DNA of 64,000 nt from Bacteroidales bacterium (GCA_017439185.1 JAFRTM010000006.1:7979-71978); one strand, 5' to 3'; shown: positions 10,061-52,480, counted from the first letter of the stretch. A program made the numbers and translations. Notes: a model not told the origin generated them from the letters alone.

Positions 10061-11300
10061 ATTCAGGAAGCACCTCTTTCACCTGGCTGTGGTCGGGGCA
10101 TTCCTTGAGGAGCTGAGCCACCGTCTTGCCGGTTCCTGGACACTCGTAGTGGGGGCAGAGCCGAGCCAGGGGCTCGAGGACGAACCTCCGCTGGGAGAGC
10201 CGTGGATGGGGGATCTGGAGGTCGGGGTCGTCGAGTTGGAGGGAGTCGTAGAAGAGGATGTCGATGTCAATGGGACGTGACTCGTAGTGCCTCTTCCCGT
10301 CGGACGAAGGGACCTCGTGACGTTCCCTGCCGAGGGAGTTTTCGACATCGTGCAGAGCCTCTAGGACCTCGTGGGGCGAAAGCTTGGTGTGGAACACGGC
10401 ACAACAGTTATAGAAGCCCTCCACCGGCTCGTCAAAACCCCAGGGGTCGCTCTCGTAGAACGGGGAACTCCAGGAGCCGAAGCCTCCGAGACACTCCTTT
10501 ACCCTGACTGCCGCTTCCCTGATGGTCCGTTCCCTGTCGCCCATATTGCTGCCGAAGGAGAGGACCACGGTGTGGTAGTCCCACTTCTCGGCCTGAATCC
10601 TGACCTTCAAAGCCTCCTTGAGGCGTTCGAGGAAGATGGTTCGTGGGATAGGCTTGGCACCAAGAGATGCGAGATGGGGAGTGGGCTGCTGGGCGTCGAT
10701 GAAGTGGAAACCGTTGATACGGCAGAATTCCACCAGTTTCGCGAACGCCACCTTCGAGGCATCGGGGACGGTGTGGAACATAGACTCGCCAGAGAAGAAC
10801 ATGCCCGTGGAGACGCCGTAGAGTCCACCCACAAGTGAGCCGTCGAGGAAAGTCTCGAAGGAGTGGGCTAGACCCGCCTCGTGAAGGCGGATGTAGGCCT
10901 CTATCATATCCTCCACAATCCATGTGCCGTCCTGTCCGTAAGCGGTGCGGTCCACCGTGGCACAGGAACGAATGACCTGCTCGAAACAGGTGTCCACCCT
11001 GACCTCGAAACGTCCCGATTTGACGGTACGGCGGAGGCTTTTGGAGAAGCGGAAACCGTCCAGGTCCATCACCATCCTGGGGTCGAGAGACCACCAGAAG
11101 ATAGGAGTCCCTTCGGAATACCACGGGAAGATACCTTGCGAGTAGGCCGCGATGAGGCGGTTGACCGAGAGGTCGCCACCGATGGCGAGGAGACCGGCAA
11201 AACCGTCCGCATCCTCGTCGGTGAGAGCCTCCGACGGTTTGGGAAACCAGAGACTGTCGGGGTCGAGGAAGTAGGGATATTTAGGCTTGCGGCGTGCCAT
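10056..11300 (-). CDS. Fusion protein: leucyl/phenylalanyl-tRNA-protein transferase (Aat) N-terminal half plus 6-hydroxymethyldihydropterin pyrophosphokinase (FolK) C-terminal half
   Basis: Single 414-aa ORF. The Aat-like region contains QGIFPWYSEG...FEVRVDTCFEQVIRSCA...GGLYGVSTGMFFSGESMFH. The FolK-like region contains VVLSFGSNMGDR...RPIDIDILFYD...IPHPRLSQRRFVLEPL. Confidence 0.8.
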   Translation of the reverse strand: MARRKPKYPYFLDPDSLWFPKPSEALTDEDADGFAGLLAIGGDLSVNRLIAAYSQGIFPWYSEGTPIFWWSLDPRMVMDLDGFRFSKSLRRTVKSGRFEVRVDTCFEQVIRSCATVDRTAYGQDGTWIVEDMIEAYIRLHEAGLAHSFETFLDGSLVGGLYGVSTGMFFSGESMFHTVPDASKVAFAKLVEFCRINGFHFIDAQQPTPHLASLGAKPIPRTIFLERLKEALKVRIQAEKWDYHTVVLSFGSNMGDRERTIREAAVRVKECLGGFGSWSSPFYESDPWGFDEPVEGFYNCCAVFHTKLSPHEVLEALHDVENSLGRERHEVPSSDGKRHYESRPIDIDILFYDSLQLDDPDLQIPHPRLSQRRFVLEPLARLCPHYECPGTGKTVAQLLKECPDHSQVKEVLPEC

Positions 11301-27000: not shown

Positions 27001-28173
27001 CTGCATATAGCTCGAGATGTTGTTCACACTTCTTATCGCCGAGAGGTTTATCAGCTGCATCAGGTTGTTGGTGCTGTTGCGAGGCAGTTGCGAGGCTGGG
27101 CTGTTGGGGTCGCCCCATCTTCCGGAACCCACGACGGGCAGTGCACTCGGATTCGATTCTCCCAGGTCTGTCAACGCCAGCAGGTTCCTGTTCTGCGTCA
27201 CCGCGGCTCCTATGTTGGTGCGCCACACTTCCACTCGCAGTATCTTCACGTTGGAGTTCACCACCGGCAGCGACTCCAGCGACTTGTTGTACCTCTCGTA
27301 GAAGTATTGCGAAAGGAAATAGTGCCGGTTCTCTTCGTATTCGTCGGCTCTTATCTCGAATTCTCTACTGCTTGCACCTCCTTTCACCTGCATATTCTCG
27401 GTGCTGGTCTCTTTCTCGCTCACCACGGCGTCCACCGTCAGCTTTCCGAATTTCAGCTTGGTGTGGAATCCGAAAAGTTGCTGCGAGCCTTTTATCAACG
27501 TGGTGTTCAGCGGGAAGGAGATGTCGGCCGCCTCGAGGAGCTGTATGATGTCGTCTTCCTTGCCTTCGTATTTCAGCTTTATCTTGTTCTCGAAATCGAA
27601 GGTCGCCTTGGTGTTCCAGTTGATGTCGAAGTTTATGAGGTCGCCTATCTTGGCATTGAGGCTTATCTGTATGTTCTCGTCGAAGTCAAAGTTTGTGACG
27701 CTTCGCTTGTTGGCGTCGATCTGCGGGTCTTTGCGGTAGTTGTTGACCACCTGGAAGGTCAGCTCGGCGCTTCCGCTCGGCGTTATCTTTATCTCTGGCT
27801 TTCCGATGAGGCTCTCCAGCTTGCGGCTGATTTCGGCAAAGCCGGGAATCTTGCTCAGGAGGCCTCCGCTTTTCTCTCCGGGACCTTCGGTCTTGTTGGC
27901 GCCTCGCCAGTAGTCGTCCATCAGCTGGTCCATCTTCCAGTCCTGATATTCCTCGAAGGTCATATATTCGCGACTGAGCTCTACACTTCCCAAGCGTTTC
28001 ACCCTAACATAGTCGCCGCTTTCGGCGTCATACTCCACTGTCGTGGTAATACTCGACGGGGTATAGGCATCGCCCATAGGCCGCCAAGTCGAGCCCGTAC
28101 TGTCCGTCTGGGCAAACATATAGCCACCCGTCAGCAGCACCAACACTAACAATATGGAGTACCTCAGCCGCAT
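21004..28173 (-). CDS. sprA: T9SS outer-membrane translocon SprA/Sov
   Basis: 2389-aa ORF with a signal peptide and a C-terminal beta-barrel ending in F. The size, and the position immediately downstream of ruvA, match the conserved ruvA-sprA arrangement of Bacteroidota as I recall it. Confidence 0.85.
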   Translation of the reverse strand: MRLRYSILLVLVLLTGGYMFAQTDSTGSTWRPMGDAYTPSSITTTVEYDAESGDYVRVKRLGSVELSREYMTFEEYQDWKMDQLMDDYWRGANKTEGPGEKSGGLLSKIPGFAEISRKLESLIGKPEIKITPSGSAELTFQVVNNYRKDPQIDANKRSVTNFDFDENIQISLNAKIGDLINFDINWNTKATFDFENKIKLKYEGKEDDIIQLLEAADISFPLNTTLIKGSQQLFGFHTKLKFGKLTVDAVVSEKETSTENMQVKGGASSREFEIRADEYEENRHYFLSQYFYERYNKSLESLPVVNSNVKILRVEVWRTNIGAAVTQNRNLLALTDLGESNPSALPVVGSGRWGDPNSPASQLPRNSTNNLMQLINLSAIRSVNNISSYMQGVGLNAASDYEKIESARLLNSSEYTVNTELGFISLSQPLANDQMLAVAFQYQVIGDTTVYQVGELTTDGINDPNTLVVKLLKGTAIDTKNPMWRLMMKNVYFLKNTQISRDNFRLNVLYEGAEGGVGTGYFTDGPKEGIPLIEVMGLDRMDASKQYYYADGVMDWFDSAAFKGGIIQSTTGRVFFPMVEPFGKDLRAILGDGEYADKYCYDSLYTMTKTLAQQYADKNKFYLEGYYTSAVSGEISLGYSVAPGSVTVTAGGVPLIENVDYTVDYTMGTVRIINESILSSGTPISVSSENNSFSMMTKRMLGLHLNYEFKPDLNLGATVMNLYEKPLTQKNNFGEEPTSNTIWGIDFNWKTEVPWITKVVDFLPGISTKAPSNLTLTAEFAHFIPGMTNTGSEDGKTSYIDDFEGAESSIDLKGVSYWHLASTPQDAESENPMFRETANGTGLAYGFNRAKFAWYRIDDIFYSNSPRNITADDRSMPYARRIAEQEVFPNKEIAANEISKVYELNMAFYPEEKGPYNYETDATAYSAGMNAEGKLEDPKSRWGGIMRELDYTDFETQNIQTIEFWMMDPFIDNPEHTGGKLYINLGDISEDILRDGRKSFENGLPTSTVVTGVDTTIWGRVPNTQPVVNAFDNDANARKYQDIGYDGLSSTHDMNDEQSFFSEYITRVGELFGTGSLAYQQAAADPSSDDFRYYRSSYYDDNDVKINDRYKYYNNPEGNSSVEQDSPESYQTAATTIPNVEDINKDNTLSEGENYYEYLVELDPAHMNIGENYIVDIQDAQNVELANGTTTSCRWYQFRIPIREPLRKVGKINGYQSIRFMRMFMRDFEEPIILRFATLELVYGTWRKYTEDLLQPGDYPTGYGENTSLNLGTVNIEENGSRDPVPYVLPPGIEREEWYNSSSSYTQLNEQAVSLDITNLAAGDARAIYRNTSYDLRYYGKMKMYVHAEKKFAADMLNDDDLTLFVRLGSDYTKNYYEYEIPLKLTEWGTSMDDPYAIWPTENNVEIDLQAMAEIKTNRNKSIRSGSSDYTPTMLYSEYVDGKKYSVLGRPNLGKVNVIMIGVRNPKGNGTEQDMVARSAIVWINELRLSDYNNKGGWSAMALARTNLADVGNLSLYGAYTSAGFGNLEDKLTDPELINRLNMQATLDFEIGRMLPEKWGMHIPLYVDWAKEIGSPQYNPLDPDVYLKRDLATYQTAAERDSVKRMTQQRKQTTNITLTNVRKERTGKAALKPHFYDFENFSFSYAYSGERSSDEDIEHYNKDQHRGGFSYNYSVQQPKQYRPFAKYKAFNNKNWKILKEFNLMYQPRNLSFSTEVYRDFEETMLRNKSAALIIMKPTYFKQFTWRRDYGLQYDISTNLKLQYNANANARIDEPIGKIETRTGSDSIWHSFLHGGTMQNFQQNIQVTYDIPITKLPYMDFLRLPLSYRANYIYQGASEALKNMGSVIESSSTFTATASANMQTFYNKFKLIKKAQAPPTPKTNDKKTGSKDKDKNKNKLDAKRGMQQNDSLSKAIEDSIHKAEVAERWREVGYFALRFITGLRTFNAQYSQSGGGHIPGYMGNATIVGLDPRNYGAPGVFILGISDNVAEELVKNDLLSSDTLLNQPHWVTGNRILSMQATLEPIRNMKVDINCTQNYSTREEYYYKYLSDYDQVMGPLSPMLSGSYTTTAWSLATAFRNKDELYKEFLDNRSIVAARLAEMNGGAYSQQMVQDSITGEYYPAGYSGNQQTVLLTSFLATYMGKDVSTHKFTPFIKMPLPNWSISYSGLGKLPFMKKWFSNISITHKYMSTYSIGGFYTDAAISGLEDYDYGAETVLNSTGDYVSPLSMEGVQISEQFNPLIKVAVNMVNSFQFSFSYQKNRTLALSFANNQLTETSRDGITVGAGYRFKDVELHLKVGRLRHDIKSDVVLQFNLTYNSNKTEIRKINQNVNQISSGSQVWMAELSAEYALSTTLTLRAFFQTNINTPFISNAYPNSTTKGGLTVRFSF

Positions 28174-28176
28174 CCC

Positions 28177-41279: not shown

Positions 41280-43415
41280 TCATTCTCCGAGTGTTTCCAC
41301 CGTTTTCACCTTCATCTGCCCTCCTTCGTTCACTATCGTCACTTTGTAGTTCAGGTAAGGGCTTGTGACGTACAGGTCTCGTTGCTGCCCTTCGGCTATA
41401 GAGGTCTCAAACGCCAGATGTATATAACTGCCTTTCAAATAATTCTCTTTCGGTGCAACTCCTTCGCCCATTGTAAATGTCGGGTTGATGAGTATCAATT
41501 CCCTCGGCATCTCTATGTTCAGCAGGGGTTTGGCTTTCCTCAGCAGTTTGCCGCCACTCGTCGCCGCACTCACTCTCGTGTTCGTCTGTATCGCCTGCTT
41601 GTACACTTTGTCGCTCTTGCTTATCGCCTTCAGGTAGGCGTCTCTCGAATGCCGCGCACTGCTGTCCAGCGCCTTCGACAGCTGCTCGTAGTTCACCGCG
41701 TGGGACTTGTTGTAGTCCACGTTGTCCGACTCGTTATAGACGTTGTCTATCCAGCAGATGCTCTTGTCGGTCATCGCTATTGCCCTCACGTCGGCTATCT
41801 CGTTGAAGTCTTTGCCCATGTAGTTCAACTCCACTCCTTCGGCTTTAGCGCTCCCACGCACTGGCACACGGTTGAACGTCGGCAGCTTCATCACGTAATA
41901 GTCTTCGGCATACATGTCGGTGAAATGGATGCACAGGAACACTCTCAGGTTCTCCAGGTCGTGGTCCGAGCGGTTGGTCACCTCCACGTCTATCGCGCTC
42001 GCATCCGACGCCAGTCCCAGGAATTTCCCTTTCTTCGCTATCTCTATGTCAATATAGTTCCGTTCCGGCAGCAGGCGGTTGAAGCTCGCCGGCATCGTCT
42101 CTTCGCACATCCGCATATCGGTCAGCAGCCCGTCGTACGACGTCTGGTTGCTTCTCCTGAAGAAGTGGTTGTATATCTCTTTCGAACAGTTCTCGAAATC
42201 GCCTTTACCGTCGTAGATTGTCGCCTTTATCAGGTTCGGCGAGAAGAAACCGATGCCCTCCATCGTCGAGCGGTACAGGTTCAGCAGGTACAGTCCTTCC
42301 CTGCTCCCGTTCAGGTAAGTCCTCGCGCGGTAGCTGTTCAGCATGTCGGTCAGCTGCTCCGACTGCCGCGGATACTCTATCGCCGCCTGGTCATAGCAGG
42401 TCAGCGCCTTGCCGTGCTGACCCTGGTAGTCATACAGGATTCCCTGAACCACCAGCGCCGGAGCGGCCTGGCCCGGATAGAGGTCCATATATTTGTCCAG
42501 CGTCCCCTGGGCCTCGGCCAGCTGACGGTCTTTCTCCGTCATCATCACGCTGTCCGTTACCTCCAGTTCCCGCTTGCCGTCGGCCTTGTTCGCACACAGC
42601 GTGTGGCCGTAGGCCTTCAGCAGCAGCGCTTCACGGTTGGTCGGGTAGTTGCTCAGTATCTTGTCGCAGTCTTTTATCACCTCCTCGGGCTGCCCGTTAT
42701 AAAGATTTATATATGCCCTGTCCTTGTCTATACACAGCTTGTCCCACTCCGTCATATATTTTGTATACACCGGCGTAAACTCCTCCAGATAGCCCAGGTA
42801 GTCTTTCTGTATCTTCTGTATCTTCTTCTTCAGTTTACCCTTCAGCTTCTGCTCCTCTTTGTATTGCTTAAACACATACTTCGCCACATTCTTGAACTCC
42901 ATGATCGCCATCATGCCCGTCACTCCTCCTTCCATTATCCCTTCCGACACCCCGGGCGCCATCTCCCCCATAGCCTGCACCGGGTCGGCACTCAGTTTCT
43001 GCACCAGCGTCGTCCACAGATTCAGGTCGTCATGCTCTTTCTGCAGCTCATATATCTCCTGTAGCACAGGCATCATCCTCTTCTTCGCGTCCAGCACCTC
43101 CGGCGCCACTCCTTCATAGTCCTGTTTCGCCAGATATTCCAGAAACGCGTCGAAATCCTTCACCTCGTGCTGCGCCACCTCCAGCGAGTTTATCACCTTT
43201 ATCGTCTTCTCCAGGTCATACTCCGGCTTCTTCTCCTCAGCCTTCTTGTCGCCGCCCAGCGACTCAAACGCTGCCTTGAACTCCTGTATCGGCTGGTAAC
43301 CCTCCGTCGAAGGCTTCTTGCTGTTCATAATCAACAACGCAGCAACCACCACCGTGGCCACCGCCAGCAGCACTCCCACTATGGTCCACCCCACTCTTTT
43401 TCCGTTTTTTGCCAT
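41280..43415 (-). CDS. Hypothetical membrane-anchored protein with TPR-like region
   Basis: 711 aa with an N-terminal TM anchor (WTIVGVLLAVATVVVAALLI) and a lysine-rich coiled region. No family recognised. Confidence 0.6.
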   Translation of the reverse strand: MAKNGKRVGWTIVGVLLAVATVVVAALLIMNSKKPSTEGYQPIQEFKAAFESLGGDKKAEEKKPEYDLEKTIKVINSLEVAQHEVKDFDAFLEYLAKQDYEGVAPEVLDAKKRMMPVLQEIYELQKEHDDLNLWTTLVQKLSADPVQAMGEMAPGVSEGIMEGGVTGMMAIMEFKNVAKYVFKQYKEEQKLKGKLKKKIQKIQKDYLGYLEEFTPVYTKYMTEWDKLCIDKDRAYINLYNGQPEEVIKDCDKILSNYPTNREALLLKAYGHTLCANKADGKRELEVTDSVMMTEKDRQLAEAQGTLDKYMDLYPGQAAPALVVQGILYDYQGQHGKALTCYDQAAIEYPRQSEQLTDMLNSYRARTYLNGSREGLYLLNLYRSTMEGIGFFSPNLIKATIYDGKGDFENCSKEIYNHFFRRSNQTSYDGLLTDMRMCEETMPASFNRLLPERNYIDIEIAKKGKFLGLASDASAIDVEVTNRSDHDLENLRVFLCIHFTDMYAEDYYVMKLPTFNRVPVRGSAKAEGVELNYMGKDFNEIADVRAIAMTDKSICWIDNVYNESDNVDYNKSHAVNYEQLSKALDSSARHSRDAYLKAISKSDKVYKQAIQTNTRVSAATSGGKLLRKAKPLLNIEMPRELILINPTFTMGEGVAPKENYLKGSYIHLAFETSIAEGQQRDLYVTSPYLNYKVTIVNEGGQMKVKTVETLGE

Positions 43416-43710
43416 ATCGTTATATTAAATACTACCAATCATAATAACGCAAATCCTCCCCCTTTATTGCCCCACCCCAAAACTTTTTTCCAAAATGCCG
43501 GTGGCCTGTAACCCCGTGTTCCGAAGGTACACTACCTTGTTAATAGTACCAATAATTACTCGGTTACTGGAAGATGTGTCTTTTTAGTTAAAAATTGTTA
43601 AAATTAGTGATTAATACACTAATAGACAACAAAGTAGTGAAAGATGACTAAAAAGTTGCAAAAAGGTTAGGTTGGGGCGATTTTAAGTAAATGCTAACTT
43701 ACTGACAACT

Positions 43711-43770
43711 AGGACTCAAGTAGGTATCAACTCTATGATAAGTCTATGGTTTATTTTTGACAAAATGGAC
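43711..43770. repeat. ~60-nt intergenic repeat, copy 2; inverted relative to 31009-31070
   Basis: The reverse complement reads GTCCATTTTGTCAAAAATAAACCATAGACTTATCATAGAGTTGATACCTACTTGAGTCCT. Confidence 0.75.
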
Positions 43771-43796
43771 ATTGGTTTCAGTGACAGTGAGGACAC

Positions 43797-43829
43797 AAAA
43801 AAATACCCCTTCCGACTCCTCAGAAGGGT
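43797..43829 (-). terminator. Intrinsic terminator after queE
   Basis: On the minus strand, ACCCTTC...GAAGGGGT forms a hairpin followed by ATTTTTTTG. It lies 25 nt downstream of the queE stop. Confidence 0.7.
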
Positions 43830-43853
43830 CCATTTTTCCCCTAGGAAATTTCC

Positions 43854-45640: not shown

Positions 45641-45855
45641 CAACTTTTTTCTTCCCCCACAACATTCCCCCCAAAATAATCACAAAAAGCTGCATCCTCT
45701 TCTACCCTCACAGCAGCTGTGTGAGTGGGATTTTGTGGAGCCCAAAATGTGCATTTATCGTGATACATAAAATATATCTTATTGATTATATACAACTTAA
45801 CACAGTTGCGAAAAAATTTCATAAAAATATTCTCAATTATTACAAATAATATTCG

Positions 45856-45863
45856 TATTTTTG
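45856..45863 (+). promoter_or_regulatory. -7 promoter box (TATTTTTG) driving the island leader RNA
   Basis: Matches TAnnTTTG and lies about 300 nt upstream of the first island gene. Confidence 0.5.
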
Positions 45864-45869
45864 CAAAAT

Positions 45870-46110
45870 CTTTCAATAGACAGAAAGAGCAAGAGAAAGT
45901 GCGTTTCTCTATTCCGCAGACGTGAACTTGGACACTTCACGAAGGCATTAAGTCGGAATAAGGATGATGCCAACTTGGTGTGTATTTGTACCTAGCGACA
46001 TACAGCCAAGTGGAGTCATATCAAGAACCTTATCTACTTAATGCCACTTAAAGGGAGTCCAAGCCCTACGTCTGAGATGGGGAACGGGATGGCTCCACTT
46101 TCTTTTTGTA
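45870..46110 (+). ncRNA. Candidate structured leader or small RNA (~240 nt), unknown class
   Basis: No ORF is present. Two small hairpins: AGAGAAA/TTTCTCT (45892-45910) and CGTGAA/TTCACG (45921-45941). A long composite hairpin is closed by a perfect 10-bp helix, GGCATTAAGT (45944-45953) with ACTTAATGCC (46036-46045), with about four further helical segments inside. A terminator-like hairpin (46050-46101) is followed by CTTTTTGT. Confidence 0.5.
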
Positions 46111-46164
46111 TTGTGAAAAATCCGTCGAGCCAGCGGCAAAAAACAACTAAAACAAACAAGTACA

Positions 46165-46818
46165 ATGAGAACAAAACTTTTCAAACAAATCACGCTGGCG
46201 GCTATTATGATAGCCTTTGCATCAACCACGTTCGCCGAAGAGCCTGTAGGCAAAAATGCACTGCAACTCGGTACCTCAATTGAAGAATCCTCCGAGGCCA
46301 CCTTACCATCCGTGCCTCCAAGATACGGAAAGAGTTACCGTAGCGGGGGAGAGAATTCGCTGAGCATTGTGGCGGGCGTGGATTTCGGATGCTACAAGAC
46401 GTTTCCGTACAACGGAGTGTATGTTGGTGCGCTGTATAACTTCATGCTGAGCGACGCTTTCGGCATTGAACCGGGCTTGGAGCTGAGATGGCTGATGAAC
46501 GACAATTATGGCACGTACCATGAGGTGGGCTGGTTTGTGCCGGTGATGGCGAACTACTCGTTTGAGGTGGGCGACGACTTCTATCTCAGTTTCTTTGCCG
46601 GTCCGACATTGGACCTCACAATGGTGAGTGTGGTAGAGTTTTGGGGGACGAAGAACAGCACATGGTTCGGTGACGGATGCTGCGACCTGCTGTTGGGAGC
46701 CGGCGTTGGAGCGAAGTACCGCAACTTCGGCCTGCGCGTAGCATACAACTACGGAGTGGTCTCGCACGCAAAGGCACTGTCGGGTCATTTTAACATCGGG
46801 CTTACCTATAGTTTCTAA
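46165..46818 (+). CDS. Outer-membrane beta-barrel protein (OMP_b-brl/porin-like)
   Basis: 217 aa with a signal peptide, alternating beta-strand pattern, and C-terminal GLTYSF. Confidence 0.75.
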   Translation: MRTKLFKQITLAAIMIAFASTTFAEEPVGKNALQLGTSIEESSEATLPSVPPRYGKSYRSGGENSLSIVAGVDFGCYKTFPYNGVYVGALYNFMLSDAFGIEPGLELRWLMNDNYGTYHEVGWFVPVMANYSFEVGDDFYLSFFAGPTLDLTMVSVVEFWGTKNSTWFGDGCCDLLLGAGVGAKYRNFGLRVAYNYGVVSHAKALSGHFNIGLTYSF

Positions 46819-46836
46819 AATACAAGAATTATAAAC

Positions 46837-46877
46837 AATCAGAAGTTGCGCACGACACGAAATTAGTGCTTATTTTC
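46837..46877 (+). promoter_or_regulatory. Conserved intercistronic motif, copy A (core 46844-46871)
   Basis: AATCAGAAGTTGCGCACGACACGAAATTAGTGCTTATTTTC followed by ATG. The core has 2 mismatches to copies B and C. Confidence 0.85.
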
Positions 46878-47279
46878 ATGAAAAAGACTATGAAATTTAT
46901 GGCAATGCTGATTTGTGCAGCCGCAATGACGGTGTTCACATCTTGTACCGTTGAACCTGAAGAAGGAATCGTTGGACGGTGGGAGTGTACTCATCTTGAT
47001 TTTGGAGATGGGGAAACTTTCATGCAAGCCCTCATCGGAGAGAATAGTGAGTCGCTATATCAGGACGGTATGATTTGGGAATTCTTTGCCGATGGTACAC
47101 ACGTAATCACACGACCTGATGGGAGTCAGGACACTACAAGATATAGAGTATCAGGAAACCAAATTTATATGGACAATATGGATGGGCTTCCATGGGAAAT
47201 AGAAAAGATAACTAACCGTAAATTGCGATTAACCTATACGTATCTGTTTAAGACGACCATGGATTTTAAACGGATATAA
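46878..47279 (+). CDS. Lipocalin-like (Lipocalin_4-type) small lipoprotein
   Basis: ATG 46878 (MKKTMKFMAMLICAAAMTVFTSC lipobox) is preferred over the track's GTG at 46866. Contains GRWECTH...WEFFADGT...YRVSGNQIYM...ITNRKLRLTY. Confidence 0.7.
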   Translation: MKKTMKFMAMLICAAAMTVFTSCTVEPEEGIVGRWECTHLDFGDGETFMQALIGENSESLYQDGMIWEFFADGTHVITRPDGSQDTTRYRVSGNQIYMDNMDGLPWEIEKITNRKLRLTYTYLFKTTMDFKRI

Positions 47280-47285
47280 CCTGAT

Positions 47286-47325
47286 AATCAAAAGTTGCGC
47301 ACGACACGGATTTAGTGCTTTTATT
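47286..47325 (+). promoter_or_regulatory. Conserved intercistronic motif, copy B (core 47293-47320)
   Basis: AATCAAAAGTTGCGCACGACACGGATTTAGTGCTTTTATT followed by ATG. Confidence 0.85.
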
Positions 47326-48273
47326 ATGAAAAAGTCTATAAAAATGATAGGCGTGCTACTATCTCTGGTTATGGTGGCAATGCTCTGCTCGTGCGAGCCT
47401 GAGGTTGACGGTCCTGATAGTCCGACGAATCCAACAAATCCGACAGATCCAACAAATCCTGATACTGTCGTATTTGATGAGAACGGGGCTTCGAATGCCG
47501 TTTTTTCTGTGGCGGAAGGACGTACCGTCCATTTCTCCAGAGGAAACCTGCAGTATCAGGCTTCGACCGACACATGGCGTTTTGCTGAACACCAGTATGA
47601 CTGCATCGGTGATGACAATGCCAACATTTCATCAACCTACAGCGGTTGGATCGACCTCTTCGGATGGGGTACGTCGGGTTGGAACTCCGGAACCACCGCT
47701 TATCAGCCGTGGTCAACAAGCATGACATCCAGCGACTATTGCCCTGGCGGCAGTTACAGCAACAACCTTATGGGCAGTTGCGCCAATGCCGACTGGGGTG
47801 TGTATAACCGCATCAGCAACGGTGGCAACCAGGCCGGCATGTGGAGAACGCTGACAAAGGACGAATGGAATTATCTGCTGGAAGAAAGGAATGCCTCGAC
47901 GGTAAGTGGCACAGAAAACGCCCGTTTCGTAAAGGCTACAATAGGCAGCGTCACTGGTCTGATAGTGTTTCCAGACAGATTCACGTTGCCGACAGGCATA
48001 TCTGTGATGGCCAGCTGCATCAACAGCGCAAGTGCCGCATTTGCAGGCATTACCTACACCACAGAGCAGTGGTCGCAGCTTGAGGGCAACGGCGCGCTCT
48101 TCTTGCCTGCTGCAGGCTACCGCTGCGGCTCGGGAGTGTACAGCGTTGGCTCGCACGGCATCTATTGGTCTAGTACATACAGTGGAGAGAACTTCGCGTG
48201 GTGCCTGTCCTTCGTGCACTCGAGTAGCGATTACCGAAGCCGCGGGCTCTCTGTCCGCTTGGTTCGGGATTAA
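47326..48273 (+). CDS. Lipoprotein with one FISUMP/DUF1566-like (C-type-lectin-fold-like) domain
   Basis: 315 aa with lipobox AMLCSC and a PTNPTNPTDPTNP linker. Contains FSRGNLQYQASTDTWRFAEHQYD...IDLFGWGTSGWN...WRTLTKDEWNYL...LFLPAAGYR...YWSST...GLSVRLVRD. Confidence 0.75.
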   Translation: MKKSIKMIGVLLSLVMVAMLCSCEPEVDGPDSPTNPTNPTDPTNPDTVVFDENGASNAVFSVAEGRTVHFSRGNLQYQASTDTWRFAEHQYDCIGDDNANISSTYSGWIDLFGWGTSGWNSGTTAYQPWSTSMTSSDYCPGGSYSNNLMGSCANADWGVYNRISNGGNQAGMWRTLTKDEWNYLLEERNASTVSGTENARFVKATIGSVTGLIVFPDRFTLPTGISVMASCINSASAAFAGITYTTEQWSQLEGNGALFLPAAGYRCGSGVYSVGSHGIYWSSTYSGENFAWCLSFVHSSSDYRSRGLSVRLVRD

Positions 48274-48306
48274 TTCAATTAATAGATTAAAATAATGAAG
48301 TAACCT

Positions 48307-48705
48307 ATGGAATGTACAGAAATAATATCTACCATTATCGCGGCGGTGGCTTTGGTAGTTTCCATTGTGAGTCTTGTCTGCTCAAAACAGGCAGCGAAGA
48401 AAAGTCTGCAAATGAACATCTTCAATGAGTTTACCCGTCGCTATCAGGAGATAACTATGGGGCTTATGAGTGACCATCAAAATGAGGTAAAATACCAGCG
48501 GTTGTATATTGACCTATGCAGCGAGGAGTATTATCTGAACAAGAAAGACTGTTTGCCCAAGGAGGTGTGGAAAATGTGGCTTGAGGGGATGATTATTGCC
48601 GTGAAAGTGGATTCACTGAAAACTGCTTGGACACAATATCGAGGTTTATACGATCCTGGGTTTCAGGGTTTCTTCGACAATTTGATAAAGGAAAGCAATA
48701 AATAA
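48307..48705 (+). CDS. Small hypothetical protein with an N-terminal TM helix
   Basis: 132 aa with the TM helix IISTIIAAVALVVSIVSLV followed by a helical soluble part. No family recognised and no conserved motif upstream. Confidence 0.55.
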   Translation: MECTEIISTIIAAVALVVSIVSLVCSKQAAKKSLQMNIFNEFTRRYQEITMGLMSDHQNEVKYQRLYIDLCSEEYYLNKKDCLPKEVWKMWLEGMIIAVKVDSLKTAWTQYRGLYDPGFQGFFDNLIKESNK

Positions 48706-48706
48706 G

Positions 48707-48747
48707 AACTCAGAAGTTGCGCACGACACGGATTTAGTGCTTCTATC
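48707..48747 (+). promoter_or_regulatory. Conserved intercistronic motif, copy C (core 48715-48742)
   Basis: AACTCAGAAGTTGCGCACGACACGGATTTAGTGCTTCTATC followed by ATG. The core is identical to copy B. Confidence 0.85.
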
Positions 48748-50526
48748 ATGAAAAAGGTATATTTGATTTTGGCAGCATTTGCTCTGCTGACCTTAGGGAT
48801 GGTGTCGTGCGACCGCAACGATGACACCACGGATAACCAAACAGGTCCAAGTGTTGGTGGATTTGACCAGAACGGTGCTTCAAATGCATTATTCTCAGTT
48901 GCGCCCGGGCGTACAGTGCGTTTCTCAAAGGGGAACCTACAGTATCAGGCTTCTACCGGCACCTGGCGTTTCGCGGAGCATCAGTATGACATTATCGGTG
49001 AGGACAACGAGAACATATCATCGACATACACTGGATGGATAGATCTTTTCGGATTTGGCACTAGTGGATGGAACAGCGGTGTCAACTGTTATCAGCCGTG
49101 GTCGTCCAGTGAAATATCTAATGATTATTCGTTGGAAGGACGTTTTGCTAGCATGCAGGGCGACTATGCAAGAAGCGATTGGGGCATATACAACGCTATT
49201 AGTAACGGAGGTAATCAGGCTGGTCTGTGGAGGACATTAACATGTGACGAATGGGAGTATCTTTTCCATAGGCGACCCAATGCAAAATCCAAATGTGGAC
49301 TGGCGAAAGTCGCTGGTAAAAAGGGATTTGTTATATTGCCTGACTCATGGTCTATACCCTCTGGCTTGACATTTAACAGTGGAGATGCCTATGACGAGCA
49401 ATTTAGCGCCAATACCTATACCTGTTCAGAGTGGGCACAGATGGAATCTGCTGGAGCGATCTTTTTGCCAGATGCGGGCCAACGTTATGGGAGAATCTAT
49501 GAGGATAATTATAACAATGTCTGTTATTGGACGAGCACGTGCACTGGTACGGGATATAACGATAATTTTTCAACAAGTTTCGCCTTGGTCCACACACGTA
49601 GTTATACGTGTTTTGACTTCAGTGAAGAGGATCCTTCTAATGGACTTTCTGTTCGTCTGGTTCAAGTGGCATCATCGTCAGCGGTTGGAGGGTTCGACCA
49701 AAACGGAGCCTCGAAAGCCGTTTTCTCTGTTGATGTAAATAAAACTGTACGCTTTTCGAAAGGCAACCTTCAGTATAATACTACCGGTAGCCATACTGTG
49801 GCAAACGGTGGTACGGCGACAGGCACTTGGCGGTTCGCCGAAAACCAGTATGATATCATAGGCAGCGATAATGAGAACATCTGTCCCACATACACAGGAT
49901 GGATAGATCTTTTTGGATCAGGCACTAGTGGGTGGAATAGCGGTGCTCAATGTTATCAGCCATGGTCGTCCAGCTCTAATGATGACGATTATCTTTCAGT
50001 TCATATAGATCAAAACGCATATGTTGACTGGGGTATATACAATGCCATCAGCAACGGAGGGAATCAAGCCGGTCTGTGGCGGGTGTTAACAGACGATGAG
50101 GCAGATTACCTTTTAAGGAGTAGGTTTAATTGTGAATATAAATTTGGAGGAGCAATTGTTAATGGACAAGCTGGAATTGTAGTTCTTCCCGATGATTGGA
50201 CCCATCCTTCGGGAATCGCTACTGGTTTTATTCCTGCCAGGTCGCTTATTGACGATTGTGTGAACATTTATAATAGTTCGGAGTGGTCGATAATGGAATC
50301 CGCGGGAGCCATATTTTTGCCTTACCCTGGATATCGGTATCGTGGTTTATATTATTACAATGGAACGATAGGTTGGTATTATCTTAAGGGGACGAAATGG
50401 TATAATCCCGGTGCGGTGTTGCAACTTTACCCAGAATACTTCTCATCTCAATATTCCCCACTGGGGGGGCCTGGTAGTGGTAATCATACTGGTTTAGCAG
50501 TCCGTTTAGTTAAAGATACAGAATAA
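48748..50526 (+). CDS. Lipoprotein with two tandem FISUMP/DUF1566-like domains (paralog of 47326..48273)
   Basis: 592 aa with lipobox LGMVSC. The domains span about 48850-49660 and 49690-50520. Each starts NGAS.A.FSV...V.FSKGNLQY and ends GL.VRLV. Confidence 0.75.
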   Translation: MKKVYLILAAFALLTLGMVSCDRNDDTTDNQTGPSVGGFDQNGASNALFSVAPGRTVRFSKGNLQYQASTGTWRFAEHQYDIIGEDNENISSTYTGWIDLFGFGTSGWNSGVNCYQPWSSSEISNDYSLEGRFASMQGDYARSDWGIYNAISNGGNQAGLWRTLTCDEWEYLFHRRPNAKSKCGLAKVAGKKGFVILPDSWSIPSGLTFNSGDAYDEQFSANTYTCSEWAQMESAGAIFLPDAGQRYGRIYEDNYNNVCYWTSTCTGTGYNDNFSTSFALVHTRSYTCFDFSEEDPSNGLSVRLVQVASSSAVGGFDQNGASKAVFSVDVNKTVRFSKGNLQYNTTGSHTVANGGTATGTWRFAENQYDIIGSDNENICPTYTGWIDLFGSGTSGWNSGAQCYQPWSSSSNDDDYLSVHIDQNAYVDWGIYNAISNGGNQAGLWRVLTDDEADYLLRSRFNCEYKFGGAIVNGQAGIVVLPDDWTHPSGIATGFIPARSLIDDCVNIYNSSEWSIMESAGAIFLPYPGYRYRGLYYYNGTIGWYYLKGTKWYNPGAVLQLYPEYFSSQYSPLGGPGSGNHTGLAVRLVKDTE

Positions 50527-50586
50527 AATAGATTTGAAAATGTCCAATCATTGAATAAATAATTGTTTAACCTAAAATTTTAAGAA

Positions 50587-50748
50587 ATGAGACAGTCTAT
50601 CAAACAAGCATCGTTGATGCATCATTATGCGGAAGAATCCGTTTATGACAAACAAAATGTTGAACCGACAAAACCAGAAAAGCCCCTAATTGATGAACGA
50701 CCGAAAAAGCCAAAAGAAGGTCAGAAAATTCTGAATGACGGTAAATAA
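50587..50748 (+). CDS. Possible 53-codon ORF (Lys/Pro/Glu-rich)
   Basis: ATG 50587 to TAA 50746-50748, read by hand: MRQSIKQASLMHHYAEESVYDKQNVEPTKPEKPLIDERPKKPKEGQKILNDGK. Below the track threshold. There is no support beyond the open frame. Confidence 0.2.
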   Translation: MRQSIKQASLMHHYAEESVYDKQNVEPTKPEKPLIDERPKKPKEGQKILNDGK

Positions 50749-50762
50749 CAAAAAACATTTAT

Positions 50763-50804
50763 GCATAAAAGGTTGCGCCCGACACGGATTTAGGGTTTTG
50801 AAAT
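50763..50804 (+). promoter_or_regulatory. Conserved intercistronic motif, copy D (core 50771-50798)
   Basis: GCATAAAAGGTTGCGCCCGACACGGATTTAGGGTTTTGAAAT followed by ATG. The core has 4 mismatches to copies B and C. Confidence 0.75.
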
Positions 50805-50969
50805 ATGGTCAAAATACAAATCAAGGCAGACAGATTGATAGAGCTGATCAACCAACTGTGCAAAACAGAATATGACGCATCGGCCGGTACCGGAAAGTAT
50901 TTGGTGGTTTCCGACAACGGCGATGTGGAGATAAAAGATCAACCAGAAAAAAGAGTACTTACCGACTAA
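50805..50969 (+). CDS. Possible 54-codon ORF placed behind motif copy D
   Basis: Read by hand: MVKIQIKADRLIELINQLCKTEYDASAGTGKYLVVSDNGDVEIKDQPEKRVLTD. Below the track threshold. Its ATG sits 6 nt after the motif, the same spacing as at the three larger genes. Confidence 0.4.
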   Translation: MVKIQIKADRLIELINQLCKTEYDASAGTGKYLVVSDNGDVEIKDQPEKRVLTD

Positions 50970-50977
50970 AAAACATT

Positions 50978-51169
50978 ATGAAAAAAATGTATTGTTCAGT
51001 TGCCGAATATGTTGACGTGGCAACAACGGGATGCGTCAAGACAGTGGATGAATATGTGGACAACTTGTTCATTGACGAGAATGTCATAGTGCATTGCAAG
51101 GACAACGACATGGACTACAAGAAGCAGGAAGTGGGGGAACTTGTGGCATTCATCGAATCGAGGCTTTAA
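50978..51169 (+). CDS. Possible small acidic hypothetical protein (63 aa)
   Basis: Track ORF MKKMYCSVAEYVDVATTGC... lies 8 nt after the previous mini-ORF. No homology recognised. Confidence 0.3.
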   Translation: MKKMYCSVAEYVDVATTGCVKTVDEYVDNLFIDENVIVHCKDNDMDYKKQEVGELVAFIESRL

Positions 51170-51430
51170 TATCATCCAATCAACGATAAAATAATAATAA
51201 TGTTTAACTAAAAAATTCAGAACAATGGAGAACAAATTAAACACATGATTAAATCTCTCGTAGGGTTGAATAGCTAATGAAAGGCCCCGGAGAAAGCAAA
51301 TGAAATTAGGAACAAAGCAAAGACTAAGGAAATCGAGGATAAAATTCTAAATAAAGAATTTCTGTCAACAATGACTATCATCGAAAACATCCTAAATAAA
51401 GAGGATTAGGAATGGAAGTCATTTAAATAG

Positions 51431-51460
51431 CAGGCAGTCAAGTGACTGCCTGTTTTCGTT
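51431..51460 (+). terminator. Intrinsic terminator closing the island transcription unit
   Basis: Perfect 10-bp inverted repeat CAGGCAGTCA / TGACTGCCTG (51431-51440 and 51443-51452), followed by TTTTCGTT. Confidence 0.7.
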
Positions 51461-52423
51461 ATATATTAAATCATTCTCCGCCGTGTCGGATTTGTAATTT
51501 GGCATTTTTGCGGTTGCAGATTATTCGGAATTTTCAGATTTTGCAGATATTACTGGGGGATGGTGTTGGATTACAGGAAGTCTTAAGTCTGAATCCTGAT
51601 GACCTCCGAGAGTTTTTCGACTATTATTTCGACCGTTTCGAGAAGCAAACGATATTAGCACCTGACGGGGAAATTGCAAATACACAAAAAGTATTCTATA
51701 TAGCAGAATAAAAATGAAGATATTTATTCTATAGCTCATAATAATTTATGCTTAGATGCATCCCATAAATGTATTTTATGCAGCCCAAAAATGAGGTAAT
51801 TTTTAATAAAAGAAAGACAAAAAATGATGCCAAATCTGATAAAACACAGAGCAAAGCGGCAAAAAGTTTCTTTCTAAAGAAAAAAAATAGCGCAAAAAGT
51901 TTCTTTGAAAAGAAAGTTTTACCCTTGTTCATTGTGTCCTAAGAAATATTTTGCCCTTCGGAAATGTTAAAAATGGGGAAAGTGTGTCCGAAAACTGCCC
52001 TTAATAGGTTCTATTAGCAAAACATCAGGAGTCTGGTGAAATCCAACCTTTAGCGACAAGCAATAAAAGATATAAAGTTTTGGCATAAAAGGTTATCTGA
52101 TTGAAAAAAGTGCAAATATTTGCAGAAATTTTCAATAGAAATTCTGACGATTGAGAATTAGCATGTAACAATCATTCCAACGGAAGGAAAACCTTTATTA
52201 GATATTAGAATGGAGGACAAGAGACGCGGTGTTTTATGCGACTTGTGGAATAGAAAATTATATTTTTCACATTTTGCGATATACATTTTGTATAAAATTC
52301 ATAACTCTCCTATTCCAAATCAGAATTCCTACTATGGCACCATCCCATATAGAAATATGGGACTAAAAATCTGGTGACAGAAAAAAGTGTGGTTATTTTT
52401 GTTGTTATTTTCAATTTTATATG

Positions 52424-52431
52424 TATCTTTG
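52424..52431 (+). promoter_or_regulatory. -7 promoter box (TATCTTTG) for the TraB/GumN-hutU unit
   Basis: Matches TAnnTTTG, 50 nt upstream of ATG 52481. Confidence 0.5.
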
Positions 52432-52480
52432 CAGTCGCTATATAATATATAATGTATAACGCAAAATATTGTAAGACACT

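What the first reader, a model, noticed from the sequence alone, without database searches (positions are those of the whole stretch)
45856..52440. AT-richer accessory island of surface-protein genes between queCDE and the TraB/GumN-hutU unit
By eye the base composition drops sharply compared with both flanks. It is strongest beyond 50.5 kb, and codon usage loses the C-ending bias seen in neighbouring genes.

The island has its own promoter, leader RNA and a strong terminator (51431-51460). The gene order is:
- an OMP beta-barrel gene;
- a lipocalin-like lipoprotein;
- a one-domain lectin-like lipoprotein;
- a small TM protein;
- a two-domain lectin-like lipoprotein;
- two or three mini-ORFs.

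All products are predicted to be envelope-associated, and none has an assigned function. No integrase, transposase, tRNA or direct-repeat boundary is visible, so the acquisition mechanism is unknown.

An OMP plus a set of surface lipoproteins under a shared control element could be a modular surface-recognition or adhesion system, or an interbacterial-competition or immunity array.
Basis: partly seen in the sequence, partly recalled or inferred. Interest (0 to 1): 0.62.

Follow-up and report, generated by a model that had tools for sequence, protein, structure and literature searches.

The report
Strain-variable gene-cassette island with repeated hairpin
This AT-rich stretch is a real accessory island in an uncultured gut Bacteroidales bacterium, absent or differently filled in sister strains, whose genes sit behind a structured leader RNA and a repeated 35-base hairpin placed 8 bases before each start codon; that hairpin occurs upstream of many unrelated secreted-protein genes in gut metagenomes and is not in Rfam.

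Summary
The island has 43.1% GC against 53.8% for the rest of the window, and it shows the strongest tetranucleotide deviation in the window.

Comparison with conspecific contigs sets its limits at 45682-52418. One strain has an empty site: queC abuts TraB and 28 nt replace 6.74 kb. Another strain keeps the same promoter and leader but carries a radical-SAM cargo. Others carry shorter or reshuffled arrays.

- It has a 3-4 bp stem with covarying pairs and a conserved 12-nt loop.
- It lies 7-9 nt before the ATG in 91% of 146 instances.
- It was found in at least 120 metagenome contigs, often in co-oriented arrays, upstream of very diverse and mostly secreted or lipoprotein genes.
- It matches no Rfam family and no paper text.
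- Breakpoints between strains fall in the element or at the start codon.

The ~250-nt leader is also a conserved structured RNA (z = -5.3, 12 compensatory pairs) found in front of different cargos.

Best reading: a cassette-structured, recombination-prone array of surface proteins. The hairpin is an mRNA-level start module that also supplies portable homology. No recombinase is present, so the island does not meet the definition of rAID-1 or of an integron. Protein functions remain unknown, and "lectin-like" was not confirmed.

The parts
45682..52418 (+). Whole island: the stretch replaced by 28 nt in the empty-site allele L155
   Evidence: blastn of the window against L155. Window 44907-45681 matches L155 4256-5030 (98%) and window 52419-53999 matches L155 5059-6638 (96%).. 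No target-site duplication is seen.
45856..45863 (+). Bacteroidetes-type -7 promoter box TATTTTTG (TAnnTTTG)
   Evidence: Read directly from the sequence. The same box sits at the same relative place in the leader homologues L100/L103 (GTATTTTTGCA) and L145 (TATCTTTG). The consensus itself comes from established knowledge (Bayley et al. 2000).
45866..46164 (+). Structured leader RNA (conserved core about 45880-46110), with a possible terminator-like 3' hairpin and U-tract at 46053-46112
   Evidence: RNA fold of -92.3 kcal/mol, z = -5.26, 0 of 200 shuffles as good. Homologues occur in L044, L100/L103, L145, L146, L149 and L151/152. RNAalifold gives 53 pairs, 12 of them with compensatory changes. 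No Rfam match.
46165..46818 (+). Small outer-membrane beta-barrel-like protein (217 aa, SPI signal peptide, C-terminal ...TYSF)
   Evidence: Pfam OMP_b-brl at 23.7 bits, below the GA of 28.7. The AF2 model is all-beta from residue 65 but has pLDDT 51. Only 5 homologue clusters were found, at 69-97% identity.
46834..46877 (+). Hairpin element copy 1 (A/U type)
   Evidence: Repeat families D4/D5. Covariance model R1 scores 57.2 bits, E = 5e-11.
46878..47279 (+). Lipocalin-like lipoprotein (133 aa from the ATG 9 nt after the hairpin; lipobox FTSC)
   Evidence: Pfam Lipocalin_4 at 24.6 bits, above the GA of 22.4. Homologous small lipoproteins follow the element in L031, L047, L050, L059, L063 and L096.
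47283..47325 (+). Hairpin element copy 2 (A/U type)
   Evidence: R1 scores 63 bits.
47326..48273 (+). Lipoprotein lec1 (315 aa), one copy of a large uncharacterised Bacteroidales surface-protein domain
   Evidence: Paralogue of lec2 at 43-51% aa identity. No Pfam, NCBIfam or PDB hit.
48307..48705 (+). Small protein with an N-terminal TM helix (132 aa). No element precedes it. It is absent from the other strains examined.
   Evidence: ORF. Depth is 0 in runs X5, X7, X9 and X13 over 48048-48655. No family hit.
48705..48747 (+). Hairpin element copy 3 (A/U type)
   Evidence: R1 scores 59.5 bits.
48748..50526 (+). Lipoprotein lec2 (592 aa), two copies of the same domain
   Evidence: More than 7,900 homologues in Bacteroidales metagenomes, none closer than 57% except its own strain. 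AF2 pLDDT is 79 with no PDB fold match.
50587..50748 (+). Mini-ORF m1 (53 aa, hydrophilic)
   Evidence: All 5 substitutions against the X5/X7 strains fall on third codon positions (positions listed; inference).
50761..50804 (+). Hairpin element copy 4 (C/G type)
   Evidence: R1 scores 53.1 bits.
50805..51169 (+). Mini-ORFs m2 (50805-50969, 54 aa) and m3 (50978-51169, 63 aa). This terminal cassette is conserved in L149 and in X5/X7/X13.
   Evidence: tblastn gives m2 98% and m3 86% in L149. All 3 m2 substitutions are at third codon positions.
51225..51248 (+). Truncated start (MENKLNT*) of an 80-aa ORF that is intact in L149 and in the X5/X7/X13 strains
   Evidence: Sequences diverge after 51229-51232.
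51429..51464 (+). Intrinsic terminator ending the array
   Evidence: 11-bp stem with 6 GC pairs, followed by a T-rich tail. A related hairpin sits at the same place in L149.
51465..52418 (.). AT-rich (31-35% GC) tail without a convincing gene. Parts are shared with some alleles (52228-52418 with L151/153/154) and it is absent from L155.

Best explanation
**What it is.** The island is a strain-variable, cassette-structured operon of accessory envelope proteins. It occupies a recombination hot spot between queC and the TraB/GumN-hutU unit of an uncultured ruminant-gut Bacteroidales bacterium.

**Layout (shown).**
- One Bacteroidetes-type promoter is followed by a conserved leader of about 250 nt that folds into a long structured RNA.
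- The first gene encodes a small OMP-like protein.
- After it come cassettes, each opened by a conserved 35-nt element.
- The element reads AAAG-UUGCGC(C/A)CG-ACACGRAWUUA-G(G/U)G. It has a 3-4 bp stem and a conserved 12-nt loop, followed by 7-9 A/U-rich nucleotides and then the AUG.
- The array ends at an intrinsic terminator.

**How it works (inferred).**
- The hairpin acts on the mRNA as a portable start module. It would give each horizontally acquired cistron its own initiation or stability context in a phylum that does not use Shine-Dalgarno pairing.
- Because the element is the same in front of unrelated genes, and is often followed by a similar signal-peptide start, it would also serve as the short homology at which cassettes are swapped, lost and gained by recombination. 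No dedicated integrase would be needed.
- The leader would be a regulatory RNA (attenuator or antiterminator type) that can be coupled to different cargos.

**Products.** They are most likely a variable set of surface-exposed lipoproteins plus an OMP. Their ligand or role is not known.
For: **Island status**
- Empty-site allele L155. A different cargo sits behind the same leader in L151/152. A shorter array is in L149. All lie in conserved queE/D/C ... TraB-hutU synteny.
- Further variants occur in L146 and in runs X5/X7/X21 at 96-99% identity.
- Composition is deviant and differs from cassette to cassette.

**Element**
- There are 4 copies in the island and none elsewhere in the 64 kb with the covariance model, filters off. 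Chance expectation is 0.
- It was found in at least 120 metagenome contigs, and the scan was truncated. Arrays reach 5 co-oriented copies.
- It is always on the strand of the downstream ORF. The stem-to-ATG distance is 8 nt in 95, 9 in 32 and 7 in 6 of 146 instances, and the spacer is 86% A/T.
- The stem covaries: pair 19-34 is CG 121, AU 25, UG 2, other 1; pair 17-36 is GU 34, GC 15. The G-U pairs fit the sense strand only. 0 of 500 shuffles reach the observed score, and slid controls collapse.
- It is not itself a promoter. A TAnnTTTG box ends within 60 nt upstream of 22% of copies, against 4.5% background. Half the copies lie within 80 nt of the end of an upstream same-strand ORF.
- It is present in rumen metatranscriptome contigs upstream of several different ORFs.
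- Downstream genes are unrelated to one another. 83 of 136 have signal-peptide-like N-termini. Pfam hits include Lipocalin_4, T9SS tails, WG repeats and BspA LRR.

**Recombination at the element**
- The joint 46877->48748 lies at the ATG.
- The joint 50790->47326 runs through a hybrid element with a C-type 5' arm and an A-type 3' arm.
- Joints also fall at 50772 and 46918-46921.

**Leader**
- Fold z = -5.26.
- Homologues stand in front of four other cargos.
- 12 of 53 pairs show compensatory changes.
Against: - No experiment or read-level RNA data show where transcripts start or are cut, or that the hairpin affects translation. The RNA evidence comes from assembled contigs, which can contain DNA.
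- The stem is only 3-4 bp and folds no better than shuffles on its own.
- The covariation may stem from as few as one or two ancestral events, giving two subfamilies.
- No complementarity to 16S rRNA above chance was found, but only E. coli 16S was tested.
- Logan contigs are de Bruijn assemblies, so some joints at repeats could be assembly artefacts. Against that, the repeats share fewer than 31 identical bases, and the same alleles are seen in independent ENA and JGI scaffolds.
- The leader alignment has only about four independent sequences.
- The OMP gene and two downstream genes (TM, m1) lack the element, and the alternative cargo in L151 has none.
Confidence: 0.6

Rival explanations
1. 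The island is an integron-like or rAID-like acquired array. The hairpin would be a site-specific recombination site, comparable to attC or to the conserved intergenic motifs of rAID-1, used by a recombinase encoded elsewhere. The genes would be orphan immunity or defence factors.
For: - Low and patchy GC, co-oriented short genes and a repeated intergenic motif with a hairpin.
- Breakpoints fall at the motif, including one hybrid element.
- rAID-1 is defined partly by such motifs and is widespread in Bacteroidales (bioRxiv 10.1101/471110; PMC12247911).
- Some arrays carrying the element hold defence-looking genes, for example Hsp70-like plus AAA in L117.
Against: - No tyrosine-recombinase motif is present in the window. 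Among about 125 element-bearing loci, the only tyrosine-recombinase motif found is a divergently oriented xerD-like gene in L060.
- No integrase lies within 10 kb.
- Island GC of 43% is above the rAID cut-off of 41%.
- No immunity-family or PADLOC hit.
- The products are an OMP and lipoproteins.
- A fixed 8-nt distance to the ATG and strict co-orientation with the gene are not needed for a recombination site.
- The element is sequence-conserved and short, unlike attC.
Confidence: 0.15
2. The element is a DNA-level regulatory site. It would be an operator for a transcription factor, or a promoter for an alternative (ECF-type) sigma factor, that co-regulates scattered accessory surface genes. 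The apparent hairpin would be incidental.
For: - It is strand-specific and always close to gene starts.
- Its 20-nt core is highly conserved, more like a protein-binding site than a typical RNA stem.
- The stem is weak.
Against: - Compensatory A-U/C-G changes and G-U wobbles occur at positions 15 nt apart.
- It matches neither the Bacteroidetes -33/-7 consensus nor a sigma-54 layout (read from the sequence).
- It frequently lies 20-30 nt downstream of a -7 box, that is, inside the transcript.
- It is seen inside metatranscriptome contigs together with upstream flanks.
Confidence: 0.15
3. This is an ordinary paralogous lipoprotein operon. The repeats would be leftovers of tandem gene duplication with no function of their own, and the low GC would simply reflect relaxed codon usage of weakly expressed genes.
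For: lec1 and the two halves of lec2 are paralogues at about 70-79% nt identity over parts.
Against: - The element also precedes the unrelated lipocalin and m2 genes.
- It is more conserved (86-91%) than the paralogous coding DNA.
- It recurs upstream of more than 100 unrelated genes in other metagenomes.
- The island is absent from, or replaced in, conspecific strains.
Confidence: 0.05

Closest known systems
rAID-1 (recombinase-associated acquired interbacterial defence) clusters of Bacteroidales (Ross et al. 2019, bioRxiv 10.1101/471110; PMC12247911)
   Same: - Same bacterial order.
- Arrays of co-oriented, mostly short genes of skewed (low) GC.
- Conserved repetitive intergenic motifs.
- Strong strain-to-strain variation and evidence of gene acquisition.
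   Different: - No XerD-like recombinase at the 5' end or anywhere in the window.
- GC is above the 41% cut-off.
- No homologues of immunity genes. The products are an OMP and lipoproteins.
- The array starts with a structured leader RNA.
- Whether the rAID-1 motif is this same element could not be checked, because its logo is only in a figure.
Integron cassette arrays and CALINs (clusters of attC sites lacking an integrase)
   Same: - Promoterless, co-oriented cassettes read from one upstream promoter.
- A repeated hairpin-forming site at cassette borders.
- Cassette content differs between close strains.
   Different: - No IntI integrase.
- The element is 27-35 nt with a 3-4 bp stem and a conserved sequence. 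attC sites are 55-140 nt, conserved in structure but variable in sequence, and lie at the 3' end of a cassette.
- Here the element is locked 8 nt upstream of the start codon of the following gene.
Variable surface-lipoprotein gene families with conserved 5' untranslated and signal-peptide regions (Mycoplasma vsp/vlp, Borrelia vsp/vlp; from my own knowledge)
   Same: - Unrelated or divergent lipoprotein bodies share a nearly identical upstream region and signal-peptide start.
- These shared regions are where recombination exchanges genes.
- The outcome is a variable surface.
   Different: - Different phylum and different sequences.
- Those systems vary within a clone, by site-specific inversion or gene conversion. 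Here only differences between strains are shown.
- The element also precedes non-lipoprotein genes.
Intercistronic and 5'-terminal stem-loops that set mRNA stability or translation of individual cistrons (for example REP/BIME elements and the ompA 5' hairpin in E. coli; from my own knowledge)
   Same: A short repeated hairpin lies in untranslated gaps of operons and in 5' UTRs, on the sense strand.
   Different: - REPs lie after genes and vary in distance to the next start.
- This element has a conserved 12-nt loop and a fixed 8-nt distance to the AUG.
- It marks accessory genes only.

Membership tests
rAID-1 | 5' XerD-like tyrosine recombinase (at least 44% identity to BF9343_RS08045) | tested here: not met
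   No tyrosine-recombinase box II motif in any frame of the window. The Pfam list of all genes within 10 kb on each side shows none. The reference protein itself was not available for a direct comparison.
rAID-1 | Two or more co-directional downstream genes | tested here: met
   Eight co-oriented ORFs, 46165-51169.
rAID-1 | GC content of the array 41% or lower | tested here: not met
   The island is 43.1% GC. Individual genes range from 38% to 53%.
rAID-1 | Conserved intergenic sequence motifs of the rAID-1 type | not testable with these tools
   A conserved intergenic motif exists. The rAID-1 motif is published only as a figure, and no rAID-1 DNA could be fetched.
rAID-1 | Genes homologous to interbacterial immunity genes | tested here: not met
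   No Pfam, NCBIfam or PADLOC hit to an immunity family for the island proteins. None appear among the top families of 132 element-linked proteins.
Integron / CALIN | IntI-type integrase next to attI and Pc | tested here: not met
Integron / CALIN | attC sites: 55-140 nt imperfect palindromes (R''-L''...L'-R') at the 3' end of each cassette, conserved in structure but not in sequence | tested here: not met
   The element is 27-35 nt with a 3-4 bp stem, a 12-nt conserved loop and a mean column identity of 76%. It is fixed 8 nt before the next ATG.
Any Rfam 15 family (leader and hairpin) | Covariance-model match | tested here: not met
   No match with E <= 1 in 43-54 kb. No match at gathering score in the whole window. 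The only hit on the leader alone is a chance one at E = 5.3.
Pfam Lipocalin_4 (PF13648) | Score above the gathering threshold | tested here: met
   ORF 46866/46878-47279 scores 24.6 bits against a cut-off of 22.4.
Pfam OMP_b-brl (PF13505) | Score above the gathering threshold, with a beta-barrel fold | tested here: inconclusive
   23.7 bits against a cut-off of 28.7. The AF2 model is all-beta with about 10 strands but has pLDDT 51. A signal peptide and a C-terminal Phe are read from the sequence.
C-type-lectin-like / Lcl_C (DUF1566) / FISUMP domains | Profile match or fold match for lec1 and lec2 | tested here: inconclusive
   No Pfam or NCBIfam hit for lec1 or lec2. Homologue P0046 scores 33.7 bits on Lcl_C against a cut-off of 34.9. 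Foldseek against the PDB gives a best E of 2.8.

The most novel reading that the evidence does not exclude
The 35-nt start-codon-proximal hairpin, and separately the ~250-nt leader, would be previously uncatalogued Bacteroidales RNA elements. Together they would form a recombinase-free gene-cassette system. The hairpin would be a portable translation or stability module that lets foreign genes be expressed in a phylum without Shine-Dalgarno initiation. It would also provide the homology at which accessory surface and defence genes are shuffled among chromosomes and phages across gut ecosystems.
Probability: 0.35. Interest if true: 0.8.

Novelty: new variant of a known kind. Interest (0 to 1): 0.66.

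Why it matters
- **Expression of acquired genes.** Bacteroidales dominate gut microbiomes, yet how they express and exchange accessory surface genes is poorly understood. Their translation initiation does not rely on Shine-Dalgarno pairing. A short, widely shared element locked 8 nt before the start codon of more than 100 unrelated accessory genes is a concrete, testable handle on how horizontally acquired genes get expressed in this phylum.
- **Strain diversification.** The element marks the points where arrays differ between strains. It therefore offers a model for how surface repertoires diversify without a dedicated integrase.
- **Possible practical uses, if the inferred functions hold.**
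  - A sequence tag for finding variable surface or defence loci in metagenomes.
  - A possible part for expression cassettes in Bacteroides engineering.
- **New riboregulator candidate.** The leader RNA appears in front of interchangeable cargos, which makes it a candidate for a new riboregulator class.

Tried and rejected
- **Rfam.** Scans of the region, the whole window and the leader alone found nothing.
- **Literature.** A string search for the core sequence found nothing relevant. The Weinberg 2010 supplementary alignments have no occurrence of either core. The 2017 supplement is not held, and the Nature version of Ross 2019 is not held.
- **Pairing with 16S rRNA.** The RNAduplex energy of the element against E. 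coli 16S is no better than shuffles. This is rejected as far as it could be tested.
- **Leader pairing with the element.** An 8-10 nt complementarity in the window (46128-46137) is not conserved in L044, so it was dropped.
- **Phage or plasmid origin.**
  - Only 8 hits in IMG/VR and none in INPHARED phages or PLSDB plasmids.
  - Some human-gut copies do follow a terminase-like gene.
- **Leader core in viral contigs.** Only chance 17-mer matches were found.
- **Distant synteny.** TraB relatives in GTDB representative genomes (46% identity or less) are not flanked by queC or hutU, so they were uninformative.
- **DGR target idea for the lectin-like genes.** No template-repeat-like copy of their 3' ends was found in 44.5-54 kb, and no reverse transcriptase lies within 10 kb.
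- **Family and structure searches.**
  - PADLOC and PHROGs gave nothing useful.
  - The fold search of lec2 found nothing.
  - The OMP model was too poor to search.
- **RNA runs.** They gave only assembled contigs, so no 5' ends could be read.

Full report
**1. The observation**

The stretch 45856-52440 has 43.1% G+C against 53.8% for the rest of the window. It is the lowest 6.6-kb stretch in the window. GC drops to 31-38% beyond 50.5 kb. Tetranucleotide composition deviates most from the window average at 49.5-52.5 kb, z = 3.5.

GC3 of the flanking genes (queE, queD, queC, TraB, hutU) is 0.73-0.80. Inside the island it is uneven:
- OMP: 0.64
- lec1: 0.60
- TM protein: 0.50
- lec2: 0.41
- lipocalin: 0.40
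- mini-ORFs: 0.32-0.58

The composition claim is therefore correct. The patchiness already suggests parts of different origin.

- 46165-46818: OMP-like protein with a signal peptide.
- 46878-47279: lipoprotein that passes Pfam Lipocalin_4.
- 47326-48273 (lec1) and 48748-50526 (lec2): lipoproteins that are paralogues.
- 48307-48705: protein with one TM helix.
- m1, m2 and m3: small ORFs.

The terminator at 51429-51454 is real, with an 11-bp stem. The window has no tRNA. No integrase or transposase lies within 10 kb. The organism is an uncultured "Bacteroidales bacterium" from gut metagenomes, mostly ruminant.

**2. Is it an accessory island?**

Yes. Contigs encoding TraB at 99% identity and flanks at 96-98% nt identity show several alleles at the same site:
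- **L155 (empty site).** queC is followed after about 200 nt by TraB. Window 45682-52418 (6.74 kb) is replaced by 28 nt. There is no target-site duplication.
- **L151/L152.** These keep the same promoter and leader (to window 46109, 92% identity). The leader is followed by a lipocalin-like 100-aa ORF, a radical-SAM/SPASM enzyme and a 191-aa ORF instead of the OMP array.
- **L149.** The order is leader, OMP (frameshifted), element, a 244-aa ORF, element, m2, m3, an 80-aa ORF, terminator. Its left flank is 97% identical to the window but its right flank only 86%. A recombination boundary therefore lies at the island.
- **L146 (96% identity).** It matches the window through the lec1 signal peptide and then continues with a different 244-aa body.

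Assembled contigs of other ruminant-gut runs at 96-99% identity add further arrangements:
- Element 1 joined directly to lec2.
- Element 4 joined to a lec1-type start.
- The OMP followed by a different lipoprotein.

The TM gene is missing from all four other runs examined. The outcome that would have refuted the finding, the same gene string everywhere, is not what is seen.

**3.

A 35-nt direct repeat occurs four times: at 46838-46872, 47287-47321, 48709-48743 and 50765-50799. Its consensus is AGAAGTTGCGC(A/C)CGACACGGATTTAG(T/G)GC.
- Each copy lies just upstream of an ATG, namely those of the lipocalin, lec1, lec2 and m2 genes.
- The copies are 86-91% identical. That is more than the paralogous coding DNA, and two of the four downstream genes are unrelated to the others.
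- Chance expectation is zero.
- A covariance model built later finds only these four in the 64 kb with filters off.

The features of these copies are:
- **Coupling to the gene.** Every copy is on the strand of a downstream ORF. The last stem base is 8 nt from the ATG in 95, 9 nt in 32 and 7 nt in 6 of 146 distinct instances. The spacer is 86% A/T.
- **Base pairing.** Position 7 of the core pairs with position 22: C-G 121, A-U 25, U-G 2, other 1. The neighbouring pair is G-U 34 or G-C 15. No shuffle reaches the observed covariation, and sliding the partner abolishes it. G-U pairs fit only the sense strand.
- **Limits of that evidence.** The stem is short (3-4 bp) and not stable by itself. The two pair types may go back to few events. 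The pairing is supported, not proven.
- **Arrays.** The element often occurs in co-oriented arrays of two to five copies.
- **Position in transcripts.** A Bacteroidetes -7 box ends within 60 nt upstream of 22% of copies, against 4.5% background and mostly 20-30 nt away. Half the copies lie within 80 nt of the end of an upstream same-strand ORF. The element therefore sits in 5' UTRs and in intercistronic gaps, not in place of a promoter.
- **Transcription.** Rumen metatranscriptome contigs contain it upstream of several different ORFs.
- **Downstream proteins.** They are highly diverse. Of 136, 83 have signal-peptide-like N-termini and 41 have a lipobox-like motif. Most have no Pfam family. The hits are Lipocalin_4 (7), T9SS sorting domains (6), WG repeats, BspA-type LRR and single cases of many others.
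- **Mobile-element context.**
  - In human-gut contigs the element with its promoter follows a terminase-like gene and precedes different cargo genes.
  - It is rare in viral collections, with 8 hits in IMG/VR and none in INPHARED or PLSDB.
- **Prior description.** It matches no Rfam family. Its core sequence appears in no paper text that I could search.

**4. Breakpoints**

Differences between strains start and stop at the element or at the start codon:
- 46877->48748 lies at the ATG, with 9 shared bases.
- 50790->47326 runs through a hybrid element whose 5' arm is C-type and whose 3' arm is A-type. This breaks the covarying pair.
- 50772 is the start of element 4.
- 46918-46921 lies 40 nt into a shared signal-peptide sequence.

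The repeats share fewer than 31 identical bases, so k-mer assembly artefacts are unlikely. The alleles also recur in independent ENA and JGI scaffolds.

**5. The leader**

The stretch 45866-46164 folds far better than shuffles (-92.3 kcal/mol, z = -5.26).

Homologues, each starting right after a TAnnTTTG box, stand in front of different cargos:
- an element plus a lipoprotein (L044)
- an element plus a small cytoplasmic-looking protein (L100/L103)
- an OMP homologue (L145)
- the radical-SAM set (L151/152)

RNAalifold on four sequences gives 53 pairs, 12 of them with compensatory changes. The 3' part (GGGAGUCC...GGCUCCACUUUCUUUUUGU) looks like a terminator or attenuator hairpin, and a second GUGGAG upstream could pair with the same 3' arm. 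That part is my reading of the sequence, not a test. There is no Rfam match.

**6. The proteins**

- **OMP.** Pfam OMP_b-brl scores below its threshold. The AF2 model is all-beta but of low confidence. Only five homologue clusters exist.
- **lec domain.** It belongs to a very large family, with more than 7,900 hits in Bacteroidales metagenomes, often combined with fn3, Flg_new or T9SS domains. No profile or fold match supports "lectin-like"; one homologue is just under the Lcl_C threshold.
- **Lipoproteins.** All three carry acidic residues just after the lipidated Cys. This fits the surface-export signal described for Bacteroidetes lipoproteins (my own knowledge; not tested).
- **m1 and m2.** They are probably real genes. 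All eight substitutions against other strains fall on third codon positions (positions).
- **Defence or immunity.** Nothing links any product to known defence or immunity families.

**7. Explanation**

Shown:
- A chromosomal hot spot with at least four alleles.
- A promoter, structured leader and terminator frame.
- Cassettes opened by a conserved, strand-specific element at a fixed distance from the start codon.
- The element is widespread and linked to accessory, mostly secreted proteins.
- Exchange points lie at the element.

Inferred:
- The hairpin works on the mRNA as a start or stability module for each cistron.
- It doubles as portable homology for recombination.
- The leader is a regulatory RNA.
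- The products form a variable surface set.

I give this reading 0.6. The rivals are:
- Site-specific recombination site of an rAID-like or integron-like system with a recombinase elsewhere: 0.15.
- DNA-level operator or alternative-sigma promoter: 0.15.
- Leftovers of tandem duplication: 0.05.

**8. Comparison and novelty**

The closest described system is rAID-1. It is found in the same order, has low-GC co-oriented arrays and has conserved intergenic motifs. This locus fails its defining recombinase, GC and immunity-gene criteria. Whether the motifs are the same could not be tested.

The locus also fails the integron criteria, having no IntI and no attC architecture.

In logic it resembles variable lipoprotein families that share 5' regions, and operons with intercistronic hairpins.

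I rate it a new variant of a known kind, meaning cassette arrays of accessory genes. It contains two RNA elements that are, as far as I could check, uncatalogued.

Noticed in passing
window 3-9038 (-) and 21007-28176 (-): Two giant open reading frames. One is at least 3012 aa and runs off the start of the window. The other is 2390 aa. The first explains why 5.3-9 kb shows no ordinary ORFs.
   Followed up: no
L151 5766-9705 (and L152): In a conspecific strain the same promoter and leader RNA are followed by a lipocalin-like 100-aa ORF, a radical-SAM/SPASM enzyme (516 aa) and a 191-aa ORF instead of the OMP and lipoprotein array. None of the hairpin elements is present.
   Followed up: partly
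L121 253-3620; also L019, L027, L048, L054, L062, L072, L120: In human-gut contigs a conserved terminase-like gene is followed by a conserved promoter plus the hairpin element, and then by a different cargo gene in each contig (an OMP-like protein, lipoproteins, cytoplasmic-looking proteins). This looks like a variable moron slot.
   Followed up: partly
L149 4806-7722 against 9644-11512: The left flank (queE-queC, leader, OMP) is 97.4% identical to the window, but the right flank (TraB, hutU) is only 86%. A recombination boundary between lineages therefore coincides with the island.
   Followed up: no
window 45857-45880 and 52116-52139: A 24-nt direct repeat (83% identity) covers the island's promoter and leader start, and recurs near the right end of the island. 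The second copy lacks a proper TAnnTTTG box. It may be a remnant of another leader.
   Followed up: no
L117 100-9650 (-): Hairpin elements precede small multi-TM proteins in a cluster that also encodes an Hsp70-like 840-aa protein and an AAA-type ATPase. The cluster looks defence-like. No recombinase is present.
   Followed up: no
L079 8723-13236 (+): An array of six lipocalin-like lipoproteins with acidic stretches after the lipidated Cys. The last five are each preceded by the hairpin element. It is the longest array seen.
   Followed up: partly
L013 1168-2098 (-): In another metagenome contig the hairpin element directly precedes a TraB/GumN-family gene. This is the same family as the gene that borders the island in the window.
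   Followed up: no
window 43250-43850: An AT-rich (41-43% GC) 440-nt gap lies between the TPR gene and queE. In run X1 several contig joints and loose ends fall here, for example 43757->52439 with only 21 nt on one side. These are probably effects of short repeats.
   Followed up: no
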